Assembly (NCBI GenBank): GCA_030390025.1
Contig: JASTWF010000034.1
Location: 2,728,001-2,792,000 of the forward strand
Origin: Squalus acanthias
Taxonomy: Eukaryota
Length of the DNA: 64,000 nucleotides
Reading direction: 5' to 3'
Below, one piece after another: positions 18,001-45,919 of this stretch (position 1 is its first letter; every line of letters starts with the position of its first letter). Both the position numbers and the translations under genes were made by a program. Below the pieces are notes generated by a model. It saw only the letters and a program-made list of their open reading frames with translations. It ran no database searches and was not told where the DNA came from.

Positions 18001-21000
18001 TTAATTGTTAATTTAGACATAATTTCTTCTACATCGGGGAGTAAAGTTACAGTTCATTGTTAAATTGACATGATGCCCTCTACACCAGTGAATACAGTTA
18101 CACTTAATATTTAATTTGAATTGATGCCCTCGACAACGGGTAATAAAGTTACAGTTAATTGTTCATTTGACATGATGCCCTCTACACCGGGGAATAAAGT
18201 TACACTTAATTGTTAAATTCGACATGATGCTCTCTTGACTGTGGAATAAACTTACAGTAAATTGTTAATTTAGACATGATATATTCGACACAGTTGAATA
18301 AAGTTACAGTTAATTGTTAATTATGACATGATACCCATGCACTAGGGAATAATTTTACAGTTAATTGTTAATTTTGACATGAAGCCGTCTACACCGGGTA
18401 ATACAGTACACGTCAATTTTTTATTTGACATGACCCCTCGGCACCGGGGAATAATTAATTATCAATTGTTAATTTAGACATGAAACCCTCTACAGCAGGG
18501 AGTAAATCTACAGTTAATTGTTAATTTGACATGATATCCTCTACACTGGGGAATAATGTTAAAGTTAATAGTTAATTTGACATTTTGCCTCTGCATTGGA
18601 GAATAAAGTTACAGTTAATTGTTAATTTGACATTATGCACTGTACATCGGCGAGTTTAGTTACAGTTAATTGTTAATTTAAACATGATGCCCTCTACACG
18701 GTGGAATAAAGTTACAGTTAATTGTTAATTTAGACACGATACCTTCTGCACAGGGGAATAAAGTTACCATTAATTGTTAATTTAGACATGATTCCCTGCA
18801 CAACGTAGAAAATGTTACAGTCAATTGCTAATTTTGACATGATTTCCTCAACACTTTGGAATAATGTTACAGTTAATTGTTAATTTTGCCATGATGTCCA
18901 CTACACTGGGGAATAAATTTAAATTTAATCTTTAATTTGTCATGAAAACCTCTACACTGGGAATAAAGTTACAGTTGATTGTTAATTTTACATATTAACC
19001 TCTACACCGGGGAATAAAGTTACAGTTGATTGTTAATTTTACATGATACCTTCTACACAGGGGAATAAAGTTACAGATAATTGTTAATTTAGATATGATT
19101 CCCTTCACACAATGGAATAAAGTTTCAGTCATTTGCTAATTTTGACATGATACCCTCTACACTGTGGAATAACGTTACAGTTAATTGTTAATTTTGAAAT
19201 GAAGCCCCCTACACCGGGGACTAAAGTTACAGTTACTTGTTAATTTGACATGATACACTCTACACCGGGGAATAAACTTACAGTTATTTGTTAAGTTTTC
19301 ATGAAAACCTATAAACTGTGGAATAAAGTTATAGTTGAATGTTAATTTTACATGATACCCTCTACACTGTGGAACAAAGTTAGAGATGATTGTTAATTTT
19401 ACATGATAACCTCTATACTGGGGAATAAAGTTACATTAAATTGTAAATTTAGATATGATACCCTCTACACCGAGGAATAAGATTACAGTTACATTTTAAT
19501 TTGACATGATGCCCTCTACACCGGGGAATAAAGTTACAGTGAATTGTTAATTTAGAAATTATTCCCTCTAAACCGGGGAATAAAGTTACACTTCATTGAA
19601 AATTTGACATGATGCCCTCTACACCGGGGTATAAAGTTTCAGTTAGTTGTTAATTTAGACAGGAGGCCCTCTACATTGGTGAATAAAATTACAGTTAATT
19701 TTTAATTTAGACATGCTACCTTCCAAACTGGGGAATAAAGTTAAAGTGAATTTTTAATTTGTCATGATGCCCTCTACACCGGGGAATATATTACAGATAA
19801 ATTGCTAATTTTGACATGATACCCTGTATACCGGGGAATAAAGTTACAGGAAATTGTTAATTTAGACATGATTCCCTGCACACCCTTTTTTAAAGTTACA
19901 GTCAATTGCTAATTTTGACGTGATATGCTCTACATTTTGGAATAATGTTACAGTTAATTGTTAATTTCGCCATGATGCCCACTACACTGGGGAATAAATT
20001 TAAATTTAATTTTTAATTTGTCATGATAACCTCTACACTGGGAATAAAGTTAAAGTTGGTTGTTAATTTTACATGATACCCTCTACACCGGCGAATAAAG
20101 TTACAGTTAATTGTCAATTTTACATGACACCCTCTACACCGGGGAATAAAGTTTCAGTTAATTGTTAATTTAGACATGATACCTTCTGCACAGTGGAATA
20201 AAGTTACAGTTAATTGTTAATTTAGACATGATTCCCGGCAAACCGGGGAATAAAGTTACAGTTAATTGTTAATTTAGACATTATTCCCTCCACACAATTG
20301 AATAAAGTTTCAGTCAATTTCTAATTTTGACATGAGACCCTCTACACTGTGGAATAATGTTACAGTTAATTGTTAATTTTGACATGAAGCCCTCTACACC
20401 GGGCACTACAGTTACAGTTACCTGTTAATTGGACATGATACCCTCTACACCGGGGAATAAAGTTAGAGTTAATTGTTAATTTTACATGATGCCCACTAAA
20501 CTGGGTTAAAAATTTAAATTTACTTTTTTAATTTTCATGAAAACCTCTACACTGTGGAATAAAGTAAAAGTTGATTGTTAATTTTACATGATAACCTCTA
20601 CACGGGGGAATAAAGTTACATTAAATTGTTAAATTAGATATGATACCCTCTTTAATACCGAGGAATAAGGTTACAGGTAAATGTTAATTTGACATGATGC
20701 CCTCTACACCGGGGATTAAAGTTACAGTGAATTGTTAATTTTGAAATGATTCCCTCTAAACCGGGGAATAAAGTTACACTTAATTGTTAATTTGACATTA
20801 TACACTCTACACCGGGGAATTAAGTTACAGCTAATTGTTAATTTGACATGATACACTCTATATTGGTCAATAAAATTACAGTTAATTTTTAATTTAGACT
20901 TGATACCTTCTAAACTGGGGAATAAACTGAAAGTTAATTTTTAATTTGTCATGATAACCTCTACACTGGGGAATAAAGATATAGTTGGCTGTTAATTTGA

Positions 21001-22678
21001 CATGATACCCTCTAAACCGGGGTATAACGTTACAGTTAATTGTTAATTTCGTCATGATACACTCTACATCGTGTAATAAAGTTACAGTAAATTGTTAACT
21101 GAGACATGATACCCTCTGGACCGGGGAATAAACTTACAGTTACTTGTTAATTTGACATGATTCACTATACACCAGGGAATAAAGTTACAGTTAATTGTTA
21201 AATTGACATAATGCCCTCTACACCAGTGAATATAGTTACACTTAATATTTAATTTGAAATGATACCCTCTACAACGGGGAATAAAGTTACAGTTAATTGT
21301 TAAATTCGACATGATGCCATCTTGACTGGGGAATAAAGTTAATGTTAATTGTTAATTTAGACATGATACCTTCTACACAGATGAATAAAGTTACAATTAA
21401 TTGTTAATTTAGAGATGACTCCCTGCACACCGGGGAATAGAGTTTCAGTCAATTGCTAATTATTACATGAAGCACTCTACAACGGGGAAAAAAGTAAAAG
21501 GCAATGTTTTATTTGACATGTTAACCTCGGCACCGGGGAATAAAGTAATTATCAATTGTTAATTTAGGCATGAACCCCTCTACAGCAGGAAGTAAATTTA
21601 GAGTTAATTGTTTTATTTGAAATGATATCCTCTACACTGGGGAATAATGTTCAAGTTAATTGTTAATTTGACATGATATCCTCTACACTGGGGAATAATG
21701 TTCAAGTTAATTGTTAATTTGACATGTTGCCTCTGCATTGGAGAATAAAGTTACAGTTAATTGTTAATTTGACATTATGCACTCTACATCGGGGAATAAA
21801 GTTGCAGAGAATTGTTAATTTATACATGATGCCCTCTACACTGGGGAATAAAGTTACAGTTAATTGCTAATTTAGACATGATACCTTCTACACAGGGGAA
21901 TAAAGTTACAGTTAATTGTTAATTTAGACAGGATTCCCTCAACACCGGGGAATATAGTTACAGTTAATTGTTGATTTAGAGGTGATACCCTCTACATCGG
22001 GGGAATAACGTTACAGTTAATTGTTAATTTAGACATAATTCCTTCTACATCGGGGAATAAAGTTGCAGTTAATTGTTAATTTGACATGATGCCCTCAACA
22101 CCAGTGAATATAGTTACACTTAACATTTAATTTGAAATGATGCCTCTACAACGGGGAATAAAGTTACAGTTAATTGTTAATTTAGACATGATGCCCTCTA
22201 CACCGGGGAATAAAGTTACAGTTAATTGTTAATTTAGACATGATGCCCTCTACACCGGGGAATAAAGTTACAGTTAATTGTTAATTTTGAAATGATACCC
22301 TGTACACCGGGGAATAAAATTATAGTTAATTGTTAATTTAAACATGATACCTTCTACAAAGGACACTAAAGTTACATTTAATTGTTTATTTAGACATGAT
22401 TCCCTCCACACCGGGGAATATAGTTACAGTTAATTGCTAATTTTGACATAATACCATCCACACCGGGTAATAAAGTTAGTTAATTGTTAATTTAGACATT
22501 ATACCCTGTACACCAGAGAATAAAGTTACAGTTAATTGTTGAATTGACATGATACCCTCTACACTGTGGAATATAGTTACAGTCATTTTTTTAACAGGAT
22601 AATCTCTACACCGGGTAATAAATTTACAGTTAATTGTTAATTTCGACATGATACATTCTACACCGGGGAATAAAGTTA
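1..22678. repeat. Tandem satellite array, ~51-52-bp monomer (consensus ~GAATAAAGTTACAGTTAATTGTTAATTT(A)GACATGATACCCTCTACACCGGG), open at the window's left edge
   Basis: Hundreds of diverged head-to-tail monomers read directly; interrupted only at 3586-4848. The 'KLTINCNFIPRCRG' ORFs are translations of the monomer. Confidence 0.98.
3586..4848 (+). mobile_element. Solo LTR (ERV- or Gypsy-type), 1263 bp, inserted in the satellite
   Basis: Begins TGTAGG and ends CCTACA (TG..CA, 6-bp terminal IR). 4-bp TSD ATAA at 3582-3585 and 4849-4852. AATAAA at 4693. The satellite resumes in register. Confidence 0.88.
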
Positions 22679-23453
22679 ATGGCCCAAAAATTAGTCTCAG
22701 TATGCGAGAGTACGCACTGTGTACTCTCGCGTATTCTGTCTCCAATTGCCGGTTTTCTGCATGCACTGATCATGCGCTGAAAACCGGCACTTCATGTTGG
22801 TTCACTTGCAGGTATCTCCGTGGAATCGCGTGGGCTGCAGATTCTGCGCGTGCGTCCTGAAATTTAATATTTTTCTGAATGAAAGTAGTGTGTGTAAGCT
22901 CCTAGCAGTTACACATGTAAAAAGCAGGAGTAAGAGACATTTTTGAAGATCCGGAGACAGCAGGAGGAATAAATCCTTTTGCAGTGGGGCTACTGAAGTG
23001 AGTTTTTTTAAATCTGAAAGCCACCAATGTTTATTTAATTAAGTCTTAGGTAAGTTTGCAATTTAAAAAAAAGTTAAAAACGTGTTTTGACCATTTGGAG
23101 TAGTATAGGAACTGTGGGTGTGTACAAGGCATATTTAGGTATCTATCATAAATGTGAAAATGAAAGTTTAAAAATGAACTATTTAAATTTCAAAAAGTTT
23201 TAAAGATGAAAATGAGTAAGTAAGTATGTATGTATGTATGTATGTATGCATTAATTTATGAAAATGTTACAGTTCTGGAAAATCAACTAGGGCCGTGTTG
23301 CGGGTAGATGTGTTCCCAATCCGATAGCGCACGTTTCCCACCATAGCCCGACCTGCTTTTATAGCCACTCACTTTACTAAAGTTACTTTAACAACTATTT
23401 CCATTTTTTCATTACAACTTTCTGTTTGAAGAAGAAGCCTGTGAGGGAGAAAG

Positions 23454-24602
23454 ATGCCCTTTCACAATCAATTCCTGTTCCTCTGTGGGATTGTGTATCA
23501 GAGAATTTTTGACGCCAGACAACAAATCAGATGGAGGAACCAAGCCCGTCTCCTCCTGAGAAGGAGAAACTACTACCCACCAAATAGAGTGTACAGGGAG
23601 AGGCTGTCATTTGAGATGCTGTCGGAGGAGCTGTGTGTGAGGAGGCTGCGCTTCAGTAAAGAGTCAATTGGCCGAATCTGTGACATGTTAAAGGAGGACC
23701 TTCAAACACGCTCGAAGAGCCGCACTGCATTATCAGTGAGCATGAAGGTAACCACAGAACTGAACTTCTTTGCAAGTGGGACTTTTCAGGCAAGCACCGG
23801 TGACATTTCCAACATTTCCAAGAATGCTGCGAGGGCCTGCATTCACCAGGTCACAGAAGCCATTTTCCGTAGGGCTTCTGAGTTCATTAACTATGACTTG
23901 TCCGCTCGCCATCAAAAGGAGATGGCGCTTGCATTTCATAACATTGCTGGATTCCCCAAAGTGATTGGGGTCTTCGATGGAACCCATGTAGCATTGAAGG
24001 CACCAGGGGTTGCACCTGTGACATTTATCAACAGGAAGGGGTTTCATTCATTGAATGTCCAGATTGTCTGTGATGCGCATCTCAGGATTTTAAATGTGAA
24101 TGCAAGTAACCGTGGAAGTAATCATGACTCCTTCGTCTTCCGTAACTCTAACTTATATGGCGACCTCAACGCATTGCCTCCAGGATCCGCATGGATATTG
24201 GGCGACAAGGGCTACCCGCTAAGACCATGGCTGATGACTCCCTACCGCAAGACCAATAATGAGGCTCAGGAGAGATACAACCAGGCACACGTGTCCACAC
24301 GGCAAGTGGTGGAGAGGACAATCGGAGTTCTGAAATCACGCTTCCGGTGCCTGGACAGGTCAGGGGTGACCTTGCAGTATTCTCCTCTGAAAGTGGCAAA
24401 GATTGTGGTGGTCTGTTGTGCTTTGCATAACTTTGGCCTGCGGGAAGGACTGACCCTTAACGCTGCAGATGAACTACCTGCAGAAATGGAGGACGTGGAC
24501 AATGCCAATGTGCCTGTGGGAAGGCATGATGGGGAAGAGCCAACTGCTGCTCAAAGTAAGGCTGTTCGGGAGCAGCTGGTAGCCAACACCTTCACGAGGT
24601 AG
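23454..24602 (+). CDS. Harbinger transposase (HARBI1-like, DDE_Tnp_4 type), 382 aa, uninterrupted
   Basis: Motifs [89 protein letters not shown]. Confidence 0.95.
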   Translation: MPFHNQFLFLCGIVYQRIFDARQQIRWRNQARLLLRRRNYYPPNRVYRERLSFEMLSEELCVRRLRFSKESIGRICDMLKEDLQTRSKSRTALSVSMKVTTELNFFASGTFQASTGDISNISKNAARACIHQVTEAIFRRASEFINYDLSARHQKEMALAFHNIAGFPKVIGVFDGTHVALKAPGVAPVTFINRKGFHSLNVQIVCDAHLRILNVNASNRGSNHDSFVFRNSNLYGDLNALPPGSAWILGDKGYPLRPWLMTPYRKTNNEAQERYNQAHVSTRQVVERTIGVLKSRFRCLDRSGVTLQYSPLKVAKIVVVCCALHNFGLREGLTLNAADELPAEMEDVDNANVPVGRHDGEEPTAAQSKAVREQLVANTFTR

Positions 24603-25154
24603 TGTCGCCTTGTACCTACCCCTCCCCCTCCCCCTCCCTCTCCCTCTCCCCCAACAAGGCAAATAAAGGTACAGACACAATTTAAAGTGAAACAGTGCTC
24701 TTTTATTGCAGCATTATAGACTTCTGAGGTTCAGTGTTGATGTACATAGTTTATAACTTTTCAATGTTAACTAGCTACTTTTCAACTTTGTAAACAATTT
24801 TTAAACAGAAATAGGTTATAAAAACATTTGTAAACAGTTCTGACTTACTTTTTTGCTTGGTTAATGCAATAAAGACATTCAAGATGGAAAATAACTCTTT
24901 CCTAAATGTAAAACAGTTTTAATGTTCAATTTTTTTGTGCAAATAAACAATTAGAATTTTTTTAAAGTGAATAGAGGCTGTACTTTTTCAATGAAAAGCT
25001 TACTTACAGTTTCAGTGTCAAATATATATTTAAATAAAAGAAAATGAAAACATGTAACTTTTAAATAAAACGAGAAATTAAACAATTGAAAAATTTACCC
25101 GCTCGAAACTATGCCTGAGGGTCAATGGATGTGTATTGTGGAAAATGCAACACC

Positions 25155-26013
25155 CTACTGTCTCCTGCGCTTTCCCGCTCCCCGTGACCGGTGCCCTGTG
25201 CTGCGACTTGAAACGGCCCTGCTTGCCGTCTCTTGCCCTTCAGCAATTACCTCCTGACAGGGTTGTTGCTGCTGCTGCTGCTGCAAGGCAAGGTTTGCTT
25301 GCATCATCACAGGCGGAGCAGCTGGCTCTTGGACCTGCACTGTTTCTGCGCTGGGAGCAGGTAAGGTTGGTTCTGAGGGAGTCACAGTAATGGCAGCAGA
25401 AATTATTTGCAAGAGTCCAGCAAGAGACTCATTCATTTTATGAAGCTCCATTCCCAAATCGGGTTTCTGCAAGAGTCCAACAAGAGACTCATTTATTTTC
25501 TTAAGCTCCATTCCCAAATCGGGTTTCTGCAAGAGTCCAACAAGAGACTCATTTATTTTCTTAAGCTCCATTCCCAGATTTTGACCAATGATAGACTCTT
25601 TCATTTTATTAAATGACATGCACAGACATTCCACTCCCTGCTTGCCCGAGTCAAGACACTCAACTTCTTTCTCTGTAAGAGAATATATCGATTGCCTCAA
25701 CCCTTCAAGATGGTGGATGTGACCCTGTAACTCCTGTTCTGTTGCATGTATATCTGTTTCTCCCACATGCACTGCAGTATCAAGCTGCTGTCTGTCTGGC
25801 GCAGAGCCAGAGGGGCCAGGAGATGGAGAGGACTTCTCCAGCAACCCGTTTCCAGAACCTCCAATTCCATTTCAGCAACAATTTCCTCTTGCTGCTCCTC
25901 CACCACCCACTCACTCGCATCTCCCACTGGCTCAAAAAGCCCTTCACCAATGACCTCTTCGGCTGCAGACTCAACGCACTGCTCATCCCGTGACTGAGAA
26001 GTCTGCTGCAAAC
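25155..26013 (-). CDS. Harbinger Myb/SANT protein, exon 3 (acidic, low-complexity), with an apparent frameshift near 25845
   Basis: TTTCCTTTACATAG acceptor in phase with ORF 25697-26011. The long C-terminal part continues in another frame (ORF 25155-25844) and ends in basic GKRRRQ. Confidence 0.7.
25409..25577 (-). repeat. 60-bp in-frame tandem repeat, ~3 copies, within the Myb gene
   Basis: Encodes LGMELKKINESLVGLLQKPD repeats; two copies are essentially identical. Confidence 0.9.
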
Positions 26014-26095
26014 CTATGTAAAGGAAACAGTAAAGATTAGCAAAGGTAAAGCATGATGTGCCACATCACAGAAGCTGATATTCAGCACACATCAC

Positions 26096-26243
26096 CTCTG
26101 TCGATTTGTTCAGTTTCAATGGGATATGCGCGAAGATATCCAAACATATGCTCGAGCCTTTCCTCATGTTCGGTTAAAGCCCTTAACGTGACAACACCAC
26201 CGCCTGTCAGTGCACGTTCTCTGGCGTTGTGAGCAGTTTTAGT
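26096..26243 (-). CDS. Harbinger Myb/SANT protein, exon 2 (not in the ORF track)
   Basis: TTTTAG acceptor, then in-frame TKTAHNARERALTGGGVVTLRALTEHEER.. with the characteristic K.AHN.RE..TGGG motif; GT donor at 26095 (phase 1). Confidence 0.82.
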
Positions 26244-26488
26244 CTAAAATTGAAACAGAAAATCTTAAATGTAAGGGTTTTTATACCAAAACTGCATTGG
26301 CACTCACACAGTTAACTCAGTAAACAACTCAAAGCAGTGGAATCCAGATAACATTAGCATTTTATTACACTTGCCTGGCTACAAAAGCCATAAAAATTTA
26401 TGATGTGGAGATGCCGGCGTTGGACTGGGGTGGACAAAAATGAGAAGTCGCACAACACCAGTTTATAGTCCAACAGATTTATTTAATT

Positions 26489-26527
26489 TTACAAGCTTTC
26501 AGAACAGTTTGCTCCTTCGTCAGGTAA
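26489..26527 (-). ncRNA. Minimal hammerhead ribozyme motif (second pLTR copy)
   Basis: Reverse complement reads UUAC-CUGACGA-A-GGAGC(aaacu)GUUCU-GAAA-GCUU-GUAA. Confidence 0.78.
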
Positions 26528-26747
26528 GTTAGCAGTGAGAGAATCTCCCAGAATTCACAATTTAAACACAGACAAAATATATTCAAATCTTTCCTACATC
26601 AAAGAGCACAGCCAAGACAATGAGATGTGTCCCAGGGGGTCCAACGTGTCAAACCACCTGCTGGCTGCATATCCTGTCAATCTGTGTAGGTTCTTGTGTT
26701 AGTCTTTAAAAAAAAAAACACCTGGGAAGACCGGCCATGATGTCAAG

Positions 26748-27488
26748 TCACGTTCTGTATCGTGACATGAACCCGATATCGCGATTGAAGCCATCCTCAT
26801 GAGTGCGGAACTTGGCTATCAGTTTCTGCTCTATGATTTTGCGCTGTCGTGTATCTCGAAGGCCGCCTTGGAGAACGCTTACCCGCATATCCGAGGCTGA
26901 ATGCCCCTGGCTGCTGAAGTGTTCCCCGACTGGGAGGCAACCCTCCTGCCTGGCGATTGTTGCGCGGTGTCCGTTCATACGTTGTCTCAGTGTCTGCATG
27001 GTCTCGCCGATGTACCATGCTCTGGAGCATCCTTTACTGCAACGTATCAGGTAGACAACGTTGGCCGAGTCACATGAGTATGTACCGTGTACCTGGTGGG
27101 TAGTGTCCTTACGTGTGATGATGGTATCTGTGTCCATGATTTGGCATGTCTTGCAGAGGTTGCCGTGGCAGGGTTGTGTGGTGACTTGGTTGCTGTTCTC
27201 CTGAAAGATGGGTAATCTGCTGCGAACGATGGTACTTTTGAGGTTAGGCGGCTGCTTGAAGGCGAGTAGTGGAGGCGTGGGGATGGCCTTAGCAAGGTGT
27301 TCGTCGTCATCGATGACATGTTGAAGGCTGCGAAGAACATGGCGTAGTTTTTCCGCTCCGGGGAAGTACTGGACGACGTAGGGTACTCTGTTAGTTGTGT
27401 CCCGTGTTCGTCTTCTGAGGAGGTCTATGCGGTTTTTCGCCGTGGCCCGTCGGAACTGTCGATCGACGAGTCGAGCGTCATATCCCGC
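26748..27488 (-). CDS. Penelope ORF C-terminus: thumb/linker, Cys-rich motif and GIY-YIG endonuclease (truncated, no RT core)
   Basis: PPLLAFKQPPNLKSTIVRS, PC...CKTC, SCDSANVVYLIRC..C..WYIGET...LRQRMNGH, VGEHF, E...I.KFRT..DGFN. The ORF-track N-terminus (27489-27551) derives from the inverted copy. Confidence 0.9.
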   Translation of the reverse strand, partial: AGYDARLVDRQFRRATAKNRIDLLRRRTRDTTNRVPYVVQYFPGAEKLRHVLRSLQHVIDDDEHLAKAIPTPPLLAFKQPPNLKSTIVRSRLPIFQENSNQVTTQPCHGNLCKTCQIMDTDTIITRKDTTHQVHGTYSCDSANVVYLIRCSKGCSRAWYIGETMQTLRQRMNGHRATIARQEGCLPVGEHFSSQGHSASDMRVSVLQGGLRDTRQRKIIEQKLIAKFRTHEDGFNRDIGFMSRYRT

Positions 27489-27924
27489 GCAACAATCGCC
27501 AGGCAGGAGGGTTGCCTCCCAGTCGGGGAACACTTCAGCAGCCAGGGGCATTCAGCCTCGGATATGCGGGTAAGCGTTCTCCAAGGCGGCCTTCGAGATA
27601 CACGACAGCGCAAAATCATAGAGCAGAAACTGATAGCCAAGTTCCGCACTCATGAGGATGGCCTCAATCGCGATATCGGGTTCATGTCACGATACAGAAC
27701 GTGACTTGACATCATGGCCGGTCTTCCCAGGTGTTTTTTTTTAAAAAGACTAACACAAGAACCTACACAGATTGACAGGATATGCAGCCAGCAGGTGGTT
27801 TGACACGTTGGACCCCCTGGGACACATCTCATTGTCCTGGCTGTGCTCTTTGATGTAGGAAAGATTTGAATATATTTTGTCTGTGTTTAAATTGTGAATT
27901 CTGGGAGATTCTCTCACTGCTAAC

Positions 27925-27963
27925 TTACCTGACGAAGGAGCGAACTGTTCCGAAAGCTTGTAA
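27925..27963 (+). ncRNA. Minimal type I hammerhead ribozyme motif (Penelope pLTR)
   Basis: UUAC-CUGACGA-A-GGAGC(gaacu)GUUCC-GAAA-GCUU-GUAA: stem I UUAC/GUAA, conserved core, loopless palindromic stem III (AGCU). Confidence 0.8.
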
Positions 27964-28136
27964 AATTAAATAAATCTGTTGGACTATAACCTGGTGTTGT
28001 GCGACTTCTCATAAAAATTTATGGCAGCATCTTGTGACTTCAGTTAACTCAGCTTAGCAAACAAACACTGTTTAAAAGTTTTTCATATTAAATTTAAAGA
28101 CATTTTAACATTGACTTTTGTTATAACTATACAAAC

Positions 28137-28388
28137 CTTGAGCGTTCGCAATAAATCACTGACTTTTTTGCGACATTGTTCAGCTGTACGAGGAATGGTC
28201 GAGGTTGCGGTCACACTTTGAGCAAACTCTTTCCACGCTGCCATTTGGCATTTTCGAGGCGGTTTGGACTTCTCAGTTCCAATGATCCTTAACCGCTTCG
28301 CGTCGACCTCGTCGAGAAGTGTGCGGAGATCATCGTCACTGAAATTTTGTGTTCTTTTGATAAACTGGATATTGCTGATAGCAGCCAT
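28137..28388 (-). CDS. Harbinger Myb/SANT-like DNA-binding protein, exon 1
   Basis: MAAIS..RTQNFSDDDLRTLLDEV..AWKEFAQSVTA..PRTAEQCRKKVSDL; GT donor at 28136 (phase 0). Confidence 0.88.
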
Positions 28389-28701
28389 TTCTGTTTGCTG
28401 ATTATAAACAGTAAAATCAAAGAAAAAAATGATTTCAGGGCTTTTAAAACGATTTAAATTACTTTAAATCTCTTTACAACTGTTTAAAATTACTCCAATT
28501 CATCTAAAAATCTTTAAAAGTTTTCAAAACATGCATTTAAATGCAACTTACTTTAACTGCCACGTCTACCACTGTTAGAAATCTGCCTTCAGCTGATGTG
28601 TAACTCCATTGAAGTGAAAAAAAAATTGGGGGCGTGGCATATGGTAAAGAGACCTTCCAGGGCGTGTCTTCACTGGACATCGCACGCGATGAAACGCGCA
28701 T

Positions 28702-28749
28702 GCTGCGCTGCAGGGCGGTGTGACGTCATACGCTGCCCTGCAGTGCAGC
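28702..28749. promoter_or_regulatory. Subterminal imperfect palindrome centred on a CRE-like TGACGTCA, upstream of the Myb gene
   Basis: GCTGCGCTGCAGGGC...TGACGTCA...GCCCTGCAGTGCAGC; outer arms match 14/15. Confidence 0.5.
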
Positions 28750-28861
28750 TCAGAAAACAGTAAGTTCCTGCGTTGAAAAAGTCAAACGGCCGAAGCGGTA
28801 TGTATTACCGCGCCGGCTCCTTACCCCCGGGTGAACAGTCAGACTTTAATTTCTGGGCCAT

Positions 28862-28906
28862 TGACTCTGTTTCTCTCTCCACAGATGCTGCCTGACCTGC
28901 TGAGCA
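28862..28906 (+). mobile_element. Penelope-derived pLTR fragment (same family as 57437-58192)
   Basis: ACTCTGTTTCTCTCTCCACAGATGCTGCCTGACCTGCTGAG matches 58129-58169. Confidence 0.7.
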
Positions 28907-29029
28907 ATGTTCCCTGGAAGGTTCTTGGCCTCGCGGCGATCTGTAAGATCCCCCGCACTTAAATTCACAGGCTGCACAGTGAGCTGGAGTGGGCGGAGGT
29001 GCCCAATACCCAAACACCCGGGATGCAAA

Positions 29030-29279
29030 GTAAAGCTCCGTCTGCACTGCCCCATCAAACATTCCCAGGGCAATAACAGCAAGGGTTATATAAAGATTAA
29101 AGCTCTCTGCACTGCCCCATCAAACATTCCCAGGCCAATAACAGAACGGGTTATATAAAGATTAAAGCTCTCGGCACTGTCCCATCAAACATTCCCAGGG
29201 CAATAACAGCACGGGTTATATAAAGATTAAAGCTCTCTGCACTGTCCCAATCAAATGCTCCCAGGGCAAGTACAGCACT
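29030..29279. repeat. ~66-bp minisatellite, ~4 copies
   Basis: Unit TAAAGCTCTCTGCACTGCCCCATCAAACATTCCCAGGGCAATAACAGCACGGGTTATATAAAGAT. Confidence 0.9.
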
Positions 29280-30599
29280 GATCCCAACTCATCTCCAGGG
29301 CTGGGGAGAGAAACCTCGCCGCCTTCTTAGCAAGTTTACCATGTTATTCACTTGCTGTTTTAAGCTCTGATTGGAATTAGACTTTATTTTTTTTTTGTTG
29401 TATGTTTAACGACAGCATTGAAGGGGGTAATAGAAACTTGGAGCAACTTCTTCTGTCAAAGCTGAACGAGACTTGAAACAATTTAAAGATTTTTAATGAA
29501 CTTTTCACGATAAATGAGTGTTAAAAACATTTTTCCCCCTTAAGTTTTGAATATGAGTTCGGAAGAAACAGAAGCAAAAATCAATTTCCTCCTCATCTAA
29601 ACAAGTTTCAATCAGGTCTTGAAGTCCAAACATTTTAAAGAGGTTCTGAAATGCTTAAAATGTTTTAAAATTGAATTTTGTCAATTTTTGATTTTGAGCG
29701 ATCAAGTGAAGTGAGTAGCTTTAGACAAACATGCAACCATAGTGTTGAGGAGGGGGAGGGCAGGGGAGGATTTGTAGGAGTTACAAATTAGTTTTAAATG
29801 ACTTTAAAAAATATATACCTTTAAGACATATAGGAAGAGAACGAAAAAAGGGAAAAACACAAAAACTTTTATTTTGCCTGTCGTTCTATAGTCCAAAAAG
29901 TCACAGGAATAATGTAAATATAGATTTCATCTTAAACATTTAGGTAAGTGTTAACAGAAACAAGAGATATGTGATGATATATAAAAATTACAAGAAACTA
30001 TTTTATTTGTTTATTGACGAAGACACAGAAAATACTTTGATTAAACTGATAAAGTACAATTCGATTCAATGTTTGATATGGGAGATAAAAAATTGTGAGC
30101 ACAATAAAGTTTGTTCCCCGCTTTTAATTGTGAAATAACTAAAATAATTCAAAATTTTCCTTGATAAGAGCAGGGAATAATATTGTGGAGAATGTTTGAG
30201 AGTAAAATATTAGAAGTGAAATTGGTAAATTATCAATCTTTACATCAACATATAAATAAACATTTCCTAGTCAGTCTGACTGGTTCTCCTGTCCTGTAAG
30301 AAAGACAGATGTTTATTTCTGTTACATCACAGTTTTTCCTGCTTTCTGTTTATAATTCAGTGACACAAATTGTGTATGTGTTTTTCTGCACTTGTGAATA
30401 AGTGTTGCATTTCTGAACTGTTACATGGGTGATGTGCTCCTTGAAGAAGACCACGTTTATTCATGGAAGTTATTGAAGTTGAAAATACGGATACCCATTT
30501 TGTTCAGTGATGTTTAATACTGCGAATTAAAGAACTACAACACTTTATATTTGTTGATTGTCTGGTTACATTGTGATTAATATTATAATAAGTTATGTG

Positions 30600-31432
30600 G
30601 ACGTAATATGTGGATGCAATCTAATGCTGAGAGATGTGAATTTATCCACTTTGCTTTTCCAGTTTTCCTACTAGAGTATTTTTTAAATGGTGAGAGTTTG
30701 AGAAATGTTGGTCTTCAGAGGGACCTTGGTGTCCTTGTACACGAATCACTGAACTTTAACCTGCAGGTACAGCAAGCAATTAGTAAAGCAAATGGTATGT
30801 TGGCCGTCATTACAAGAGGATTTGAGTATAAAAGTAAAGACGTCTTATTGCAATTATATAGGGCATTGGTGAGATATACACCTGGAGTACTGTGTACAGT
30901 TTTGGTCACCTTACCTAAGGAAGGATATACTTTTCAAAGAGGGAGTGCAAGGAAGGTTCACCAGACTGGTTCCTGGGATGGGGGTATTGTCCTATGAGGA
31001 GAGATTGAGGAGACGAAGCATATATTCTCTAGAGTTAAGAAGAATGAGGTGTGATCTATTTGAAGCATACACAATGCTTACTATGCTTGACTGGTTAGAT
31101 GCAGGGAGGATGTTTCCCCTGGCCTGGGGGTCTAGAACCAGGGGTCACAGTGTCAGAATAAGGGGTCGGCCATTTAGGACTGAGATGAGGTGAAATATCT
31201 TCATTCAGCGGCTGGTGAATCCTTGGAATTGTATAGCCCAGAGAGCTGTGGAGACTCAATCATTGAGTATATTCAAGACCCCGATCGATAGATTTTTGAA
31301 TATTGAGGGATTCAAGGGATATGGGGATAGTGCAGGAAAGTGGAGATGAGGTAGAAGAACAGCTATTATCATGTTGAATGGCGGAGCAGGGTCGAAGGGC
31401 CAAATGGCCTGCTCCTGCTCCTATTTCTTATG
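30600..31432 (+). mobile_element. CR1 LINE 3' fragment (RT C-terminus and 3' UTR), degenerate
   Basis: RDLGVLVH..KANGML..RGFEYKSK..LYRALVR; LSYEERL..YSLE.RR.R.DL; tail GGCCTGCTCCTGCTCCTATTTCTTATG. Confidence 0.9.
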
Positions 31433-31488
31433 TTATTAAAGCGCCCTCAATACTCTCCCATCAAATAACTCCAGGCAGGCGCACAAAA

Positions 31489-31588
31489 GAAAAATACTGT
31501 GGATGCTGGAAATACTCAGCAGGTAAAGCAGCATCTGCGGAGAAAGAAACAGAGTTAACGTTTCAGGTCGATGACCTTTCATTGGAAC
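31489..31588 (-). mobile_element. Penelope-derived pLTR fragment with a degraded hammerhead
   Basis: Homologous to 57443-57572; core reads CCAAUGA-AAGGUC(auc)GACCU-GAAACGUUAAC on the minus strand. Confidence 0.7.
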
Positions 31589-31634
31589 AGGCAGATACAC
31601 ATGGATTAGATACAGAGCACTGCTCCACTCAACT

Positions 31635-34052
31635 CACTGATATACCCAACACCATTGACTTTAACACTCTGATATACCCCACAACCCTCACTGTAACACA
31701 CTGGTATAGCTCACTAAACTCTGATATACCCACACCGCTCACTGCAACACTCAGATACACCCCACTCTCTTTCATACAACAAACCTCTCACTGTAACACA
31801 CTGATATACCCCACACCCCTCATTGTAACATTCTCAGATACTGAACACCCCTCACTGTAAAACTGATATACCCCACATCAATCACTATAGTCATCTGATA
31901 TACCCCACAACCTCTCACTGTAACACTCTGATATAAACCACACCCAACACTATAACACTGATATAGCCCACACTCCTGACTGTAACACTCTCTTACATAC
32001 CCCAAACATCTCACTGTAACACACCGTTATACCCCACGCCCCTCACTGTAACACTTTGTGATATACTCCCTATCCCTCACTGTAACACTTTGATATACGC
32101 GACACCCCTCAATGTAACACACTGATATAACCCCACACCCCTGACTGTAACACTCTGTTATACACCACCCCCCTCACTGTAACACTCTGATATGCCCAAC
32201 ACCGGACATTGTATTACTCTGATGTACCTCACACCCGTAACTGTAGCACTCTGATGCAAACCCACTCCCCTGACTACAACACTCTGATATACCCCACACA
32301 TGCCTTCGTGTAACACACCGATATACCCCACACGTCTTTATGCTAACACTCTGATATACGCCGCTCCCCTCAATTTAACTCTCTGATATACCTCACACAC
32401 CTCACTGAAACACTGATATACCTCTCACTGTAACAGACCGATATACCCCACTCACCTCACTTTAACACTCGTATATACACCACACCCCCGCTGTACCACT
32501 TTGATATACCCCACAACCCTCGCTGTAATACTGTGATTTACCCGACACCTCTCACTGTAATACTGATATACACCACACCCATCACTGTAACACACTGAAT
32601 ACCCCACACACATCAATGTAATACACTGTTATACCGCACACCCCTCGCTGTAAAACTGTGATTTACCCGACACCTCTCACGGTAATACTGCTATACACCA
32701 CACCCTTCACTGTAACACATTGATATACCCCACACGACTCACTTTAACTATCTGATCAACCCCACACCCCTCACTATAACACTATCATATACCCCACATG
32801 TCTCACTGTAACTCTCTGATTTAATCCATACACCTCACTGCAACACGCTGATATGAAGGGATAATTACTCGTCCTAGCCCCTTCAGGGCTACCCCGGATC
32901 AGGCATATTGTTCAGACGTTCACTTTCAAATAAACTTTGAGTTAGACGAATCCTAAAGATGCTTAATTGGGTGTAAAGGTCCGGACAATCTCTCCCTAAA
33001 GGAAAGGAACAACCTGAAAATGTTACCAGCCTCCAGATAGCACTTTTAATAAGATTAGCTAGACTGTAAAGTTCCGGATATTATGAGGGTCTGCAAAACT
33101 CCCCAGAATTCTGCAACTCCTCACCAAAGAGTGCACAGAGATTGAGTTTGCGAGTTTGATACAGAAGTCTTATGTGAGACAATTCTAAAAATATATAGAT
33201 TTATTAAAGAACCGACATGTAATTTACAGTTGGTGAGTCAATCACAACATTAACAGATCCAAAAAGAGAAAGCTTACAATTCAATTATCAGAGAACCTTA
33301 CTTTAAAATCTTATCGTTGCTACAGTTTTACAGTTCACATTTCTGCCGGATATCCACCAAAATCAAATACCTTTGATACCCGAGGTACAAAGAGTTCGAG
33401 ACAAACAGAGCCGCCTCTGAAGCCAAGAATCACCTTGCCCCTTAAAGCGAGTCTACTATCCCATTTGAGAGTTCAATATTTATACCCTTTTCCAGTGGTA
33501 TTTCCTTTAAGGTTTTCTGCTGATGTAAGCTAATTATCTCTGGTCATTTTTCTGGTGACCCCTGCAATACTTACAGTCACCACAGCTGGTAGCAATGCAG
33601 AATTATGTCTCTTCTCTAGGTTTTCTAAATTTTCCATAAAAACAGTGTAACGGCAGGTGCGTTTTACTTGATGTCATTTTTACAAAGGCAGATGTTTGTG
33701 CTTCTTTACGAAGTGTAAATTAGAACACCTTAACCAGGGTGAACCATTGTCTTCTTCCGAAAGGTCAGCCTACCGGAGCCTTTAACCTCCTGTTCCAATA
33801 AGGTTATTGATTCAGTGTCAACAATTATCTTATCTCTACAGCCAGAATGCTTTCACAGCTTTTACATAGTTAGGTTTCTAGATTTCCAGACACAGTTTGT
33901 CATGTTTTAATAAGGCCAGAATTCTTTAATAGAATGGTGTATTTTTCTGAATAGTTTATATGGCTTATACTTTCACAGATAGACCACACACCTCTCACTG
34001 CAACACTCTGATATACCCCACACTCCTGATTGTAACACTCTCTTACATACCC
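31635..34052. repeat. ~31-33-bp minisatellite (CACTGTAACACTCTGATATACCCCACACCCCT), interrupted by a solo LTR
   Basis: Diverged tandem units read directly. Confidence 0.92.
32854..33977 (-). mobile_element. Solo LTR, 1124 bp, inserted in the minisatellite
   Basis: TG..CA termini. 4-bp TSD GATA at 32850-32853 and 33978-33981. Minus-strand TATA-like GTATAAAT (33478-33485) upstream of AATAAA (33200-33205). Confidence 0.8.
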
Positions 34053-34892
34053 CAAGGAAGGCAAATGGTATGCTGGCCTTCATTACAAGAGGATTTGAGT
34101 ACAGGAGTAAAGAAGTCTTCCTCCCTTTATATAGGGCCTTGGTGAGACCACACCTGGAGTACTGTGTACAATTTTGTTTTCCTTACTTAAGGAAGGATAT
34201 ACTTGCCATAGAGGGAGTGCAACGAAGGTTCACGAGATTGATTCCTGGGAAGGTGGGACTGTCGTATGAGAAGAGATTAAGTAAACTAGGCCTGTATTCT
34301 CTTGAATTCAGACGAATGAGAGGGGATCTCATTGAAGCATAAAAATTATTACAGTGCTTGATAGGTTGGATGCTGGGAGAATGTTTACCTTGGCTGGGGA
34401 GTCTAGAAACAGGGGCCAGAGCCTCATGATAAAGGGTAGGCCATTCAGGACTGAGATGAGAAGCACAGAAACATAGAAACATAGAAGATAGGAGCAGGAG
34501 TAGGCCATTCGGCCCCTCGAGCCTGCTCCACCATTCAAAGCGATCGTGGCTGATCATCCAAATTCAGTACCCGGTCCCTGCTTTCTCCCCTTATCACTTG
34601 ATCCCCTTAGCCTTAAGAAATATATCTTACTCTAATAAAGACATTTCTTCACACAGAGGTGGTAAACCTTTGGAATTGTCTATCCCAGAGGCCTGTGGAG
34701 GCTCAGTCATTGAATATATTCAAAACAGAAGTCGATAGATTTCTGACTTGTAAGGGCATCAAGGGATATCGAGATAAGGACGGTGAAAGGAATTGAGGCA
34801 GAAAATCAGCCATGATCTCATTGAATGGCGAAGCAGGCTCAAAGGGCCGAATGGCCTACTCCTGCTCCTATTTCCTACATTCTTATGTTCTT
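34053..34892 (+). mobile_element. CR1 LINE 3' fragment, interrupted by an antisense CR1 3'-tail fragment (~34465-34632)
   Basis: LAFITRGFEYRSKEV..RPHLEYCVQF..RRMRGDLIE; insert starts (AGAAACAT)n-AGAAGATAGGAGCAGGAGTAGGCCATTCGG. Confidence 0.88.
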
Positions 34893-34894
34893 AT

Positions 34895-36020
34895 ACCTAT
34901 CACTGTAACACACCGTTTTACCCCACACCCTTCACTGTAACACTCGCTGATATACTCCATACCCCTCGCTGTAAAACTCTGATTTACCCGACACCCTTCA
35001 ATGTAAAACACTCTTATAAACCCGCACCCCTGATTGTAACACTCTGATATACACCACATCTCTCACAGTAACACTGTGTTAATTAACCCAACACTGCTCA
35101 TTAGATTACTGTGATGTACCCCACGCCCCTCACTGTAATACTGTGTTGTACACTACACCTCTCACTGTAACACTCTGATGTACCCAACACCGCTCATTGT
35201 ATTACTCTGATGTAACCCACACCTCTCACTGTAGATCTTTGATGTAAACCCACTCCCCTGACTACAACATTCTGATATACCCCACACATCCCTTACAGTA
35301 ACACACTGATATACCTCACACACGTCTCTGTACGACTATGATATATCCCTTACTTTAATCCTCTCTTACATATTCCAAACCTCTCACTGGAACAGACCAA
35401 TATACCCCACTCACCTCACTTTAAACCCGCACCCCTGATTGTAACACTCTGATATACCCCACACCCCTCACTGTAATGCTCTGATATACCGCACAATTCT
35501 CGCTGTAACACTTTGATATACACAAAAATCACCAATGTAACACACTGATATACCCCACATGCTTACGGTAGCACTATGATATACCCCACACACCTCACTG
35601 CAACATGCTGATAAACCCCACACCCCTCACTGTAACACACTGATATACCCCACACACCTCACTGTAACTCTCTGATTTACCCCACCCCCACACTGTTAAA
35701 CTCTAATATACTGCACACCCGTCACTGTAACACACTGATATACCCCACACCCCTCATTGTAACACTCTGATGTACCCCACACACCTCACTGCAACACGCT
35801 GATTAACCCCATACCGCTCATTGTAACCCTCTGATATACACCAACACCCTCACTGTAACACTCTGATACACCCCACACCCCTCAGTGTAACACTATGATA
35901 AACCCCACACACCTCACTGTAACTCTCTGATAAACCCCACACCCCTCATTGTAACACTCTGATATACCCCTCAATGTAATCCTAACTTACATACTGATAC
36001 ACCCCACACCACTCACTGTT
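34895..36020. repeat. ~32-bp minisatellite (same family as 31635)
   Basis: Tandem CACTGTAACACTCTGATATACCCCAC units. Confidence 0.92.
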
Positions 36021-39460: not shown

Positions 39461-40173
39461 ATTTGGTTAACAGTCTCCTAAACCAAGACAGCATTCTTAT
39501 GACCTGAAACAAATGTTCAGTGTCAGTAGCAGACTGATATTCGTTAAATAAAGAGTCACCTCCAATAAATGTACTTGAGTTGAACATTTGAATTTTGGTA
39601 ACACGAATTCACCTTCAGAATCAATAGCTGACAGCAGCGCGGATGGGATGGGGAACGACAAAGAGAGAAACACAGTTAAACATGGGGGGAAAAGTCGGTT
39701 GGTTAGCACCTCCCCTGAGCACCCTCGGGGGTGGTGGGAGGTCTAATGGGGCGCTAGATATTTAGCGCCCGAGAGCGACTATTTTAACGCTCCTCGCGAA
39801 ATTGAGCAGTCATTTTGCGCTGCCACTAAACACTGCCGCCACGATCTCCTGCGCCGACAGGTCGTGACATCAGTCGAGCGTGCAATGCCCTGGTCGCGCC
39901 CCGGACTGAAAATTGAGTCGCGTCCCCTGCCTTAGCTCCTGCCGCTAGGAACGACACGTAGAGGGGAATGTTTTCAAGTCGGGAAGGGGCTGGGGGAGCG
40001 CTATTTAATAGCGGTTGCCTCCTGTCGTTTCTTGTCGGCGAAATTTTTGTTACATGAAGGTTGAGAGACGTCTGGAGAGATTCGACGCTCACCGAAGGAG
40101 TTTTGGGCGCTGAGCACCACTTTGGAGGTTCATTTTTATTTCACCTTCCTTCTAACGAAATTTAGAAGCTTCG

Positions 40174-41304
40174 ATGGGGGCTGCACTAACTTGGGTCGTC
40201 GTCCAGCTTCACCTTCGGAGACAGCAGAGGCGCTGAGAGAGAGAATGGCAAACGCGACCAGAGGGAATAGGGCCATCATGAGACCTTACCCTCCCAGGGT
40301 ATTCAGGGAGCAATTCTCCTCCTATATCCATTTGTCTGAGGAGCAGTGTTTCCAATGGCTGCGCTTCAGCAATGTGGTGGTCACTGAGCTCTGCCACCTC
40401 CTGCAACCAGATCTGCAGCCTCAGCTCAGGACCAGGACGTCTCTGTCGGTGGCAGTGAAGGTGACAGTGGATCTGAATTTCTAAGTCAGCGGTCTTATCA
40501 GACTTCTACTGGGGACATAGTGAATATCTCCCAGTTCGCTGGTCATTGTTGCATCCAGGAGGTGACAAAGGCTTTGTATAAGAGGAGACACCAGTACATC
40601 TCTTCCCATGACCCGGACTAAGAGCGCGAACACGCTTGTAGCTTTGCAAGGTTAGTGGGCTTCCCCATGGTTAAGAGCGCCTTTGACTGCATGCATGTGG
40701 CATTGTGGGCTCCTCATGAAAATGCAGAGGTCTTCAGAAACCACAAGGGCTTCCACTCTCTGAATGTCCAGTTGGTCTGTGACCACAGGCAGCTCATACT
40801 CGCCATCAATGCCCGCCATCATGGCAGCAGCGACAACACTTTTATCCTGCGCCAGACCTATTCCAACCATCGGGTCAACCTAGTGGATGGCTCCTCGGGG
40901 ACAAGGGTTATCCACTCTGCACCTGGCTGATGACACCGCTGCATAACCCCAACACCCCTGCCGAGTGACAATACAATGAGAGCCATAGCGCCACCAAGAA
41001 TTTAATGGAGCAGACGATCGGCGTCTTGAAACAACGGTTCCGGTGTCTGGATAACTCAGGAGGAGCCCTGCAGTAATCTCCAGAGCGAGTTTCACTCTTC
41101 ATTGTTGAGTGCTGCATCCTTCATAACATTGCAATCATGAGGACCCAGCCATTGCCACCAGGGATTGGTGCATCACCTGAGGAGGAGGAGGAAGAGGGAG
41201 AGGAGGAGGAGGAGGAGAATCAGCAGCACCAACGTGGGAGGGAGGCGCACAATGTTGCCACTGCAAGGGCCGTCCGTGAGTGGCTCATAAGACACTGATT
41301 CTAA
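40174..41304 (+). pseudogene. Harbinger transposase pseudogene (second family); CpG-rich upstream region from ~39680 is probably the element's left arm
   Basis: [62 protein letters not shown]; several stops and frameshifts. Confidence 0.9.
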
Positions 41305-45017: not shown

Positions 45018-45919
45018 TCATCCTTTAATGAATTTTACAATTAGAGTAAAGGGATATTTCCCCACATTCTTCAACTGCTCTCTGAACTTAGTCTGGGTCA
45101 TGGCGTAAATCCCAGTGTTTGTGCAGCAACTCAGCAGCTGCAGCATGAATCCCAGTTCCATTACATAACCAGGTAGAAGTACAGAATCATACCCCAACCA
45201 CCACATCCGGGTCCATATAGAATACACCATAAACACTGCCCATAACAGGATGAAATTGCCGGAGATAACAAGCAGTAAAATGATGGATTTCCTGCGGCTC
45301 TCCATCTCTGGGTCTCTGGGACTCTCCCCACTACTGTGACCCCGGAGTCTCCTGCGGGCTCTGCTGGCCACTAAAATGTGTCTGACGGTGACAGCATTGA
45401 GCAGCAGAATCACCACAAATGGGACACACGGGGTGACAAAATAATGAAGGAGCTCGATTGTTCCCCAGACCCGTGAATTCACAACATCGTCTGTGACATC
45501 ACAAAACCAGGCGATGTTCCCAAGCGCATACCGATCTGTTAACATAAAATACCAGGTGATGTCCTTTAAAACGCTCAGCACAGTCACTGTTCCCAGAATC
45601 ACAGCCGCCGTTTTCTCGGTGCAATATTTAGTTTTCAGCTTCTGGCAACAAATGGCCACAAATCGATCAAAGGTGAAAGTGACGGTGAACCAGACAGAAC
45701 AGTCTGTGGCTGCGAACAGCAGGACGGCGTGGATATTGCACACGGGGATGGACCGCACGAAATAAAACTGTTCCATATAAACAATCGGAATCTGCCTCAA
45801 TATCAGGTCGAGGATAACGACCGGTAGATCCGCCGCTGCCATGGCCACCAGGTAGCGAGTGACACATTTGGAGAGTCCACACTTTCCCCGAGACAGGATC
45901 ACAATCGTCACTAAGTTCA
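45018..45919 (-). CDS. Class A GPCR, GPR139/GPR142-like, exon 2 (end of TM1 through TM7 and C-terminus), uninterrupted
   Basis: NLVTIVILSR, YLVAMAAADL, SVWFTVTFTFDRFVAIC, HYFVTPCVPF..ILLLN, RRKSIILL, SCCTNTGIY..QTKFREQ; acceptor TTCCTCACAG at 45920. Confidence 0.93.

What the first reader, a model, noticed from the sequence alone, without database searches (positions are those of the whole stretch)
26389..28023. Hammerhead-bearing Penelope foldback nested in the intron of a young Harbinger
Seen: a 14-bp TSD, a 528-bp near-perfect inverted repeat around a ~517-bp spacer, an uninterrupted GIY-YIG C-terminus, a 37-nt tail and one hammerhead core per arm. All of this sits between exons 1 and 2 of the Harbinger Myb gene without breaking the exons. 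Known: inverted 5' pLTRs and minimal hammerheads are hallmarks of Penelope-like elements. Inference: Myb pre-mRNA would fold into a long dsRNA, possibly an siRNA or ADAR substrate that also masks the ribozyme. The DNA transposon could carry the retroelement as cargo.
Basis: partly seen in the sequence, partly recalled or inferred. Interest (0 to 1): 0.72.

Follow-up and report, generated by a model that had tools for sequence, protein, structure and literature searches.

The report
Ordinary Penelope insertion inside decaying Harbinger
A common shark retrotransposon left its textbook back-to-back double copy inside an intron of one decaying DNA transposon; other copies of that transposon lack the insert, so this is most likely an ordinary one-off nested insertion, not cargo being carried around.

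Summary
The anatomy is real: a 14-bp direct repeat, 528-bp arms with 7 mismatches, a 517-bp spacer, an open Neptune-type GIY-YIG C-terminus, a 37-nt tail and one minimal hammerhead per arm, all inside Myb intron 1. Public shark runs show the empty site and RNA-like contigs spliced across this intron, so the nesting is confirmed. This layout is the published standard form of Penelope-like insertions, and an older example from another family lies in the same window. Both ends share 3 nt with the target and the inner joint shares 3 nt, which fits two cDNAs primed from the two strands of one cut. The cargo idea has no support: no filled junction is listed (tables cut), this Harbinger copy has unmatched flanks, its Myb gene is frameshifted in exon 3, and its transposase has changed at invariant residues. 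A hairpin would form if the locus were transcribed, but the only hammerhead on the Myb strand has lost its G10.1-C11.1 pair and has no partner. The insert also adds a perfect cryptic splice donor and a poly(A) signal. Transcription, siRNA and editing at this locus are untested. Ordinary; low interest.

The parts
22681..28859 (.). Harbinger DNA transposon copy (6179 bp with the insert, 4558 bp without), with short imperfect TIRs
   Evidence: TIR ends located; other contigs share the last 45 bp and then diverge; flanks read AAT left and ATT right, satellite on the left, a different repeat on the right
23454..24602 (+). Harbinger DDE transposase, 382 aa, open frame, with 8 changes at columns at least 90% conserved (4 of them invariant in 11 of 11 homologues)
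   Evidence: PF13359 E 5e-42; 67% identical to the best shark homologue
28137..28388 (-). Myb-like gene, exon 1 (Myb/SANT domain)
   Evidence: PF13873 E 4.4e-11; homologue residues 2-83 align up to 28137; splice to 26243 in run X8
26244..28136 (-). Myb intron 1, 1893 nt here and 272 nt when empty; the insert lies 113 nt from the donor and 145 nt from the acceptor
   Evidence: spliced contigs in X8
26096..26243 (-). Myb exon 2
   Evidence: homologue residues 84-121 align from 26243; intron 2 (26014-26095) joint in X8
25155..26013 (-). Myb exon 3, coding part, with a frameshift near 25830-25850; the spliced frame stops at 238 aa
   Evidence: the homologous C-terminus lies in the other frame; family contigs stop fitting at 25850 and 25830
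26389..26402 (+). Left copy of the target duplication; the last 3 nt are shared with the element end
   Evidence: one copy at the empty site; family contigs match down to 26400
26403..26439 (-). 37-nt Penelope tail, present at this end only
   Evidence: 30-40 bp tail described in PMC8557442 and PMC11167929
26440..26967 (-). Left arm: 3' part of the sense copy (end of the endonuclease, 3' UTR, pLTR)
26489..26527 (-). Minimal type I hammerhead on the Myb-sense strand; stem II closes with G-U instead of G10.1-C11.1
   Evidence: features compared with PMC4209133
26748..27487 (-). 5'-truncated Penelope ORF: end of the RT thumb, C-x4-C-x2-C linker, GIY-YIG endonuclease with CCHH
27485..27487 (.). 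Inner joint of the two antiparallel copies, 3-nt microhomology
   Evidence: the native element continues differently behind 27487 (13 contigs in X1, 1 in X8); the arm starts at 27485
27485..28012 (+). Right arm: inverted, 5'-truncated copy ending at the internal site, without tail
27925..27963 (+). Minimal hammerhead with intact G10.1-C11.1, antisense to Myb; its reverse strand gives a 9/9 consensus splice donor at 27928
28010..28023 (+). Right copy of the target duplication; the first 3 nt are shared with the arm

Best explanation
This is a 5'-truncated Penelope-like retrotransposon in the usual head-to-head form, sitting in Myb intron 1 of one Harbinger copy whose relatives show the empty site; it is most likely a one-off chance insertion with no function. 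Inferred mechanism: the RT-endonuclease nicked both strands of an AT-rich, nearly palindromic site 8-14 nt apart. Each free 3' end (both end in ATG) likely primed a cDNA at one of the two pLTR start sites, both of which read CAU. One cDNA began at the tail end and ran about 1085 nt; the other began 37-40 nt inside and ran about 525 nt. They were then joined through 3 nt of microhomology. The host copy is decaying: frameshifted Myb, drifted transposase, no matching TSD. If it were transcribed, the arms would pair and bury whichever hammerhead is in sense, and the new splice donor or poly(A) signal could cut the Myb message short.
For: Shown: TSD, arms, tail. Empty site with a single 14-mer: a 231-nt X8 contig maps to 26315-26402 and to 28010-28166, overlapping by 14; loose ends before 28010 equal the left flank in X1 (20 of 20 letters) and resemble it in X5 (3 contigs). 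Both Myb introns are spliced in X8. Inner microhomology. Summed contig depth over the Penelope part is 257-538 times that over the Harbinger part in 3 of 3 DNA runs (not a copy number), so nesting by chance is expected. A second fold-back of another family, with an 11-bp direct repeat and 84% arms, lies at 57426-58203; another inverted joint of this family is in X5. Literature: inverted 5'-truncated copy plus tail is typical (PMC8557442, passages); two RT start sites and both strands cut and extended (PMC11167929, main text); opposite-strand hammerhead pairs (PMC4209133); nested inverted copies with 9-10 bp TSD (PMC3846280, passages). Host decay.
Against: The read tables are cut (32 of 32,252 and 32 of 7,627 pieces shown), so absence of further filled copies is not shown. 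No genome was held. Close siblings of this Harbinger exist (0-2 differences per 86-108 nt at depth 75-300), the TIRs and DDE triad are intact, and family members are spliced in an RNA-like run, so movement in trans remains possible. One X5 contig joins the Penelope end at 28011 to Harbinger 28139 (depth 11.8, short side 22 nt), which could be a deleted derivative of a filled copy. PMC11167929 reports initiation without homology to the cut DNA, whereas both ends here share 3 nt. The two-cDNA route is inferred from one locus.
Confidence: 0.85

Rival explanations
1. Hitch-hiking: the Harbinger has moved, or been copied, with the Penelope fold-back inside, making a small composite subfamily.
For: TIRs present and transposase frame open with DDE; close sibling sequences at multi-copy depth; one X5 contig joins a Penelope end to Harbinger 28139; the insert spares exons 1 and 2 and both splice sites.
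Against: Every junction shown at this site is the empty one. This copy lacks a matching TSD. Myb is frameshifted. The 28011-28139 joint starts at the element's natural internal end, so a separate insertion explains it as well. The cargo has no RT and could not move on by itself.
Confidence: 0.07
2. Working hairpin locus: the Harbinger Myb promoter transcribes the fold-back into a 528-bp dsRNA that is diced or edited and helps silence this very abundant Penelope family.
For: 523 of 528 arm positions pair in the predicted intron fold; the promoter side of the element is present; family members are spliced in X8; Penelope small RNAs are known in rotifer and Drosophila (PMC3846280, passage).
Against: The spliced contigs shown differ from this copy (3-13 differences in 104-112 nt), so they come from other copies. 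Fold-backs of this kind are the family's normal product, so this one is not special. A 9/9 cryptic donor at 27928, made before the second arm, could divert the transcript (prediction).
Confidence: 0.05
3. Same element, different route: one cDNA folded back or switched template (self-priming), instead of two cDNAs primed from the two target ends.
For: Self-priming is proposed for inverted Penelope copies in PMC3846280 (passage); the arms share variants that differ from the family majority (26504, 26888), so they come from one source lineage.
Against: The joint has no palindrome but a 3-nt overlap and a 517-nt unique spacer; both outer ends fall on pLTR sites that share CAT with the target; the enzyme extends both strands in vitro (PMC11167929).
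Confidence: 0.12
4. Assembly artefact (fold-back chimera).
For: Inverted repeats are prone to mis-assembly (PMC8557442); no listed contig spans the filled junctions.
Against: The arms differ at 7 positions, the duplication matches a real empty site exactly, and the tail is on one side only.
Confidence: 0.02

Closest known systems
EN+ Penelope-like elements, Neptune/Nematis type, with inverted 5'-truncated copy and tail (PMC8557442)
   Same: C-terminal GIY-YIG with CCHH, C-x2-5-C-xx-C linker, inverted truncated copy at the 5' side, 30-40 bp tail at one end, hammerhead near the 3' end.
   Different: Both copies are truncated behind the RT core, so there is no full ORF and no direct upstream pLTR; the target is an AT-rich palindrome, not a microsatellite. 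No tree was built to separate Neptune from Nematis.
Poseidon PAc of the green anole (PMC11167929)
   Same: Two RT start sites that define the tail; both strands cut at AT-rich DNA and extended.
   Different: Different clade by the linker motif; here both ends share 3 nt with the target, while the paper reports initiation without homology.
Pen2a/Pen2 insertions of Adineta vaga (PMC3846280)
   Same: Inverted pLTRs, tail on one end, TSD of about 10 bp, nested inside other transposons.
   Different: The hosts there are another Penelope or a non-LTR element; the inverted joints often carry palindromes.
Minimal type I hammerheads of metazoan PLEs (PMC4209133)
   Same: 4-bp helix I, extra base after A9, palindromic 15.2-16.2, pairs on opposite strands.
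   Different: The Myb-sense copy has G-U at 10.1-11.1; helix II is 5-6 bp; the pair is about 1.4 kb apart rather than 100-700 bp.
Vertebrate Harbinger transposons (PMC9179366)
   Same: DDE transposase plus Myb-like gene between short TIRs.
   Different: This copy has a frameshifted Myb gene and no matching 3-bp TSD.

Membership tests
EN+ Penelope-like element | C-terminal GIY-YIG endonuclease with CCHH | tested here: met
   VVYLIRC..C...WYIG..R..H..H motifs conserved in 6 aligned proteins; weak PDB hit to Endonuclease II, E 0.19; no Pfam GIY-YIG hit
EN+ Penelope-like element | RT in the same ORF upstream of the endonuclease | tested here: met
   Truncated away at this locus, but the 89% and 61% identical relatives P0001 and P0003 carry RVT_1 upstream in one chain
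EN+ Penelope-like element | Inverted 5'-truncated copy and a 30-40 bp tail at one end | tested here: met
EN+ Penelope-like element | Short TSD against an empty site | tested here: met
   8-14 bp; empty site in X1, X5, X8
Neptune/Nematis clades | C-x2-5-C-xx-C linker between RT and EN | tested here: met
   C-x4-C-x2-C in the window and in all 5 relatives
Neptune clade | RT phylogeny | not tested
   No named reference set was fetched
Minimal type I hammerhead | Conserved core, helix I, palindromic 15.2-16.2 | tested here: met
   Both arms against the description in PMC4209133; no Rfam match
Minimal type I hammerhead | G10.1-C11.1 pair | tested here: inconclusive
   Met in the right arm, G-U in the left (Myb-sense) arm
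Minimal type I hammerhead | Same-strand partner for the dimer; self-cleavage | tested here: not met
   One core per strand in the insert; cleavage itself cannot be assayed here
Harbinger | DDE transposase and Myb-like gene within TIRs | tested here: met
Harbinger | Identical 3-bp TSD on both sides of this copy | tested here: not met
   AAT versus ATT (or TAA versus TTG one base further out); unrelated flanking repeats
Autonomous Harbinger copy | Intact Myb ORF | tested here: not met
   Spliced frame stops at 238 aa; the C-terminus homologous to two 476-aa proteins is in another frame
Composite (cargo-carrying) DNA transposon | Two or more filled copies at different sites | tested here: inconclusive
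   None among the rows shown; tables cut, no genome held
Hairpin siRNA or ADAR locus | Locus transcript, small RNAs, A-to-I edits | not testable with these tools
   Only pooled contigs were available

The most novel reading that the evidence does not exclude
A Harbinger subfamily spreads, in trans, a promoter-driven 528-bp Penelope hairpin: a mobile dsRNA source that silences or edits transcripts of the genome's most abundant ribozyme-bearing retroelement, one transposon carrying a suppressor of another.
Probability: 0.03. Interest if true: 0.7.

Novelty: new member of a known kind. Interest (0 to 1): 0.16.

Why it matters
As it stands, little: it is one clean example of a known insertion product. 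Its use is mechanistic. The empty site is known, so the two ends and the joint can be read to the base. They fit double-ended priming at two fixed RNA sites with 3 nt of primer-template match, which the in vitro work on Poseidon did not see. With this family's very high copy number that point can be tested across thousands of insertions. A general side point: in any head-to-head Penelope insertion the sense hammerhead lies on the second arm transcribed and would always be buried, and the antisense of this family's hammerhead core is a perfect 5' splice site.

Tried and rejected
Whole-genome copy count: no genome held. Rfam, 20000-36000, E up to 1: no hammerhead, one chance snoRNA hit. Pfam did not recognise the endonuclease. 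No run on record as RNA was listed; X8 and X15 are guessed to be RNA, which says nothing on expression of this copy. A>G and T>C counts in X8 equal those in DNA run X1 (10 and 13 each); pooled contigs cannot show editing, so this is uninformative. Exact search for the left flank plus TSD in metagenome contigs: 0 matches, uninformative for a shark. Myb exon 1 against longer proteins: 0 of 123 candidates; the HMMER search of exon 3 then gave 2 hits. Earlier-findings look-ups by sequence, by place and by eight words were empty. The primary Harbinger paper PMC2290759 was not held, so the need for the Myb C-terminus in binding the transposase is recalled, not read. I first suspected the NRGS motif of the transposase was damage; relatives P0020 and P0021 share it. 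I considered the 97 and 91 contigs that end at 26400 as proof of a fixed insertion end and rejected that: the loose consensus is similar in two runs, so part of it is the element's own continuation. Dating by arm divergence is weak: 5 substitutions in 528 (0.3-2.2%), about 2-16 million generations at 7e-10 (PMC10587355, passages), but 2 of 5 are CpG changes and RT errors would inflate it. Paper searches for hitch-hiking of nested retroelements and for Penelope hairpin siRNA gave listings only, none read; I make no claim that either is absent from print. Supplements were not read for any paper.

Full report
Observation. A 14-bp direct repeat lies at 26389-26402 and 28010-28023 and is the only exact 14-mer repeated over more than 200 bp within the Harbinger. 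The arms are 26440-26967 and 27485-28012, 528 nt with 7 mismatches, 517 nt apart. A 37-nt extension lies at the left end only. The minus-strand frame is open from the inner joint to 26748. Hammerhead cores lie at 26523-26497 (minus) and 27929-27955 (plus); Rfam does not score them.

The insert. The 245-aa fragment found 18 relatives among 698 candidates, the best 89% identical over 99% of its length to a shark protein. Three of three longer relatives scanned carry RVT_1 upstream. The alignment of 6 proteins shows a C-x4-C-x2-C linker, a GIY-YIG-type motif and CCHH, the marks of the Neptune/Nematis type in PMC8557442 (passages). Pfam has no hit for the endonuclease; the profile's only PDB hit is a weak one to Endonuclease II (E 0.19). 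No tree was built.

The host. A Harbinger runs from 22681 to 28859. Its transposase (23454-24602, plus strand) matches PF13359 and shark HARBI1-like proteins at up to 67%. Its Myb gene is on the minus strand, with exons at 28388-28137, 26243-26096 and from 26013. Two 476-aa Myb-like proteins (the only 2 hits, E 3e-4 and 6e-4; PF13873) align to exon 1 up to residue 83 and to exon 2 from residue 84. In run X8 (RNA by guess), 2 contigs leave exon 1 at 28137 and continue with 29 of 30 letters of the exon 2 start (compared by eye), and 2 contigs skip intron 2. So the intron is real at family level.

Empty versus filled. No genome was held, so I used public runs (20 listed); 5 were laid, in two halves of the locus. 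A 231-nt X8 contig maps to 26315-26402 and to 28010-28166 with a 14-letter overlap: the empty site with one copy of the repeat. X1 (1 contig, 20 of 20 letters) and X5 (3 contigs) show the left flank as the loose end before 28010. X15 has a 296-nt contig that fits from 28010 on, with its other side not shown. That is 3 of 4 runs directly and 1 by inference; X6 was laid on the left half only. No filled junction is among the rows shown, but only 32 of 32,252 and 32 of 7,627 pieces were shown, so this is lack of support, not proof of absence. One X5 contig (depth 11.8, short side 22 nt) joins the Penelope end at 28011 to Harbinger 28139. It may be a separate insertion, a deleted filled copy or noise. 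Summed depth over the Penelope body is 483, 257 and 538 times that over the Harbinger in X1, X5 and X6. This is not a copy number, but it makes chance nesting unsurprising.

How it was likely made. Family contigs match the window down to 26400 (97 in X1, 91 in X5), and the right arm runs to 28012. So CAT at each end belongs to both element and target, and the true duplication is 8-14 bp. The empty site is a near-perfect 18-bp palindrome. The native element continues differently behind 27487 (13 contigs in X1), while the inverted arm starts at 27485: a 3-nt overlap at the joint. PMC11167929 (main text) shows that a PLE protein cuts and extends both strands at AT-rich DNA and starts at two RNA sites whose spacing is the tail. 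I infer two cDNAs, one from each target end and each start site, joined by microhomology. That paper reports no primer-template homology; the 3-nt matches here differ from it, on one locus. Self-priming (PMC3846280, passage) is the rival, but this joint has no palindrome.

It is the normal product. PMC8557442 calls the inverted 5'-truncated copy and one-sided tail typical. PMC4209133 reports opposite-strand hammerhead pairs. PMC3846280 shows inverted copies nested in other transposons. The same window holds an older fold-back of a different family at 57426-58203, with arms 84% alike, an 11-bp direct repeat, a one-sided extension and one hammerhead core per arm. X5 shows another inverted joint of the young family at 26931/27052. 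The scan's own index lists 1262 notes with the words Penelope, hammerhead and inverted (unchecked AI notes, not support).

State of the host copy. 'Young' is half right. Pieces with 0-2 differences per 86-108 nt occur at depth 75-300 in X1 and X5, beside more distant forms at higher depth. But the spliced Myb frame stops at 238 aa, the homologous C-terminus lies in the other frame, and family contigs stop fitting at 25850 and 25830, around the switch. The transposase keeps DDE but differs at 8 columns conserved in at least 90% of 11 homologues, 4 of them invariant. The flanks read AAT and ATT; the left is a 52-bp satellite and the right is a fragment of the other hammerhead-bearing repeat. No TSD marks this copy as having jumped in its present form. 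Movement in trans stays possible, since the TIRs are there. That Myb binds the transposase is from PMC9179366 (passage); that its C-terminus does so is recalled.

RNA consequences, all predictions. In the folded intron 523 of 528 arm positions pair, and the Myb-sense hammerhead is fully buried but for one mismatch. That hammerhead has U in place of C11.1, a pair PMC4209133 calls highly conserved, and no same-strand partner; single minimal hammerheads did not cleave in that paper. So masking probably changes nothing. No contig ties transcription, small RNA or editing to this copy; the spliced contigs shown differ from it at 3-13 positions per 104-112 nt.

Verdict. A real, cleanly readable, ordinary nested insertion: a new member of a known kind. 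The cargo and silencing ideas are not excluded, but nothing here supports them. The bioRxiv paper 10.64898/2026.07.22.740005 was read in part (abstract, introduction, start of methods) and adds only context.

Noticed in passing
window 57426-58203: Older fold-back of a different hammerhead-bearing Penelope-like family: arms about 57467-57734 and 57930-58199 (84% alike), 11-bp direct repeat, extension on the left side, one core per arm, and a 20-bp perfect inverted repeat in the spacer.
   Followed up: partly
window 22678-22680 and 28860-28904: The Harbinger's flanks do not match: 52-bp satellite on the left, a hammerhead-type repeat cut inside its core region on the right. This suggests recombination between two copies, a flanking deletion or satellite overwriting.
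   Followed up: partly
window 27923-27931, minus strand: The antisense of this family's hammerhead core is a perfect 5' splice-site consensus, so every antisense intronic insertion of this abundant family would add a strong cryptic donor.
   Followed up: partly
window 26462-26789: Where arm differences can be polarised (26708 and 26789 by family majority, 26501 by other subfamilies) the left arm carries the changed base; too few to be significant.
   Followed up: partly
window 28011 / 28139, run X5: One contig joins the Penelope internal end to Harbinger exon 1 near its donor; possibly a second insertion into another copy.
   Followed up: no
window 25408-25576: 60-bp tandem repeat (2.8 copies) inside the Myb C-terminal frame, giving a 20-aa repeat.
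   Followed up: no
window 28819-28863, runs X8 and X15: Contigs of 0.5-1.8 kb share only the last 45 bp of the right end, some at high depth: probably related non-autonomous elements with the same TIR.
   Followed up: no
window 40065-40484 and 46168-48395: Further Harbinger-like relics (transposase-like frames and possible Myb partner frames), judged by eye from the ORF list.
   Followed up: no
window 45018-45947, minus strand: 309-aa open frame that looks like a single-exon G-protein-coupled receptor, judged by eye.
   Followed up: no
window 21-22678: About 21 kb of a 51-52 bp satellite in two blocks, abutting the Harbinger's left end; 32-bp and 27-bp satellites further right.
   Followed up: no
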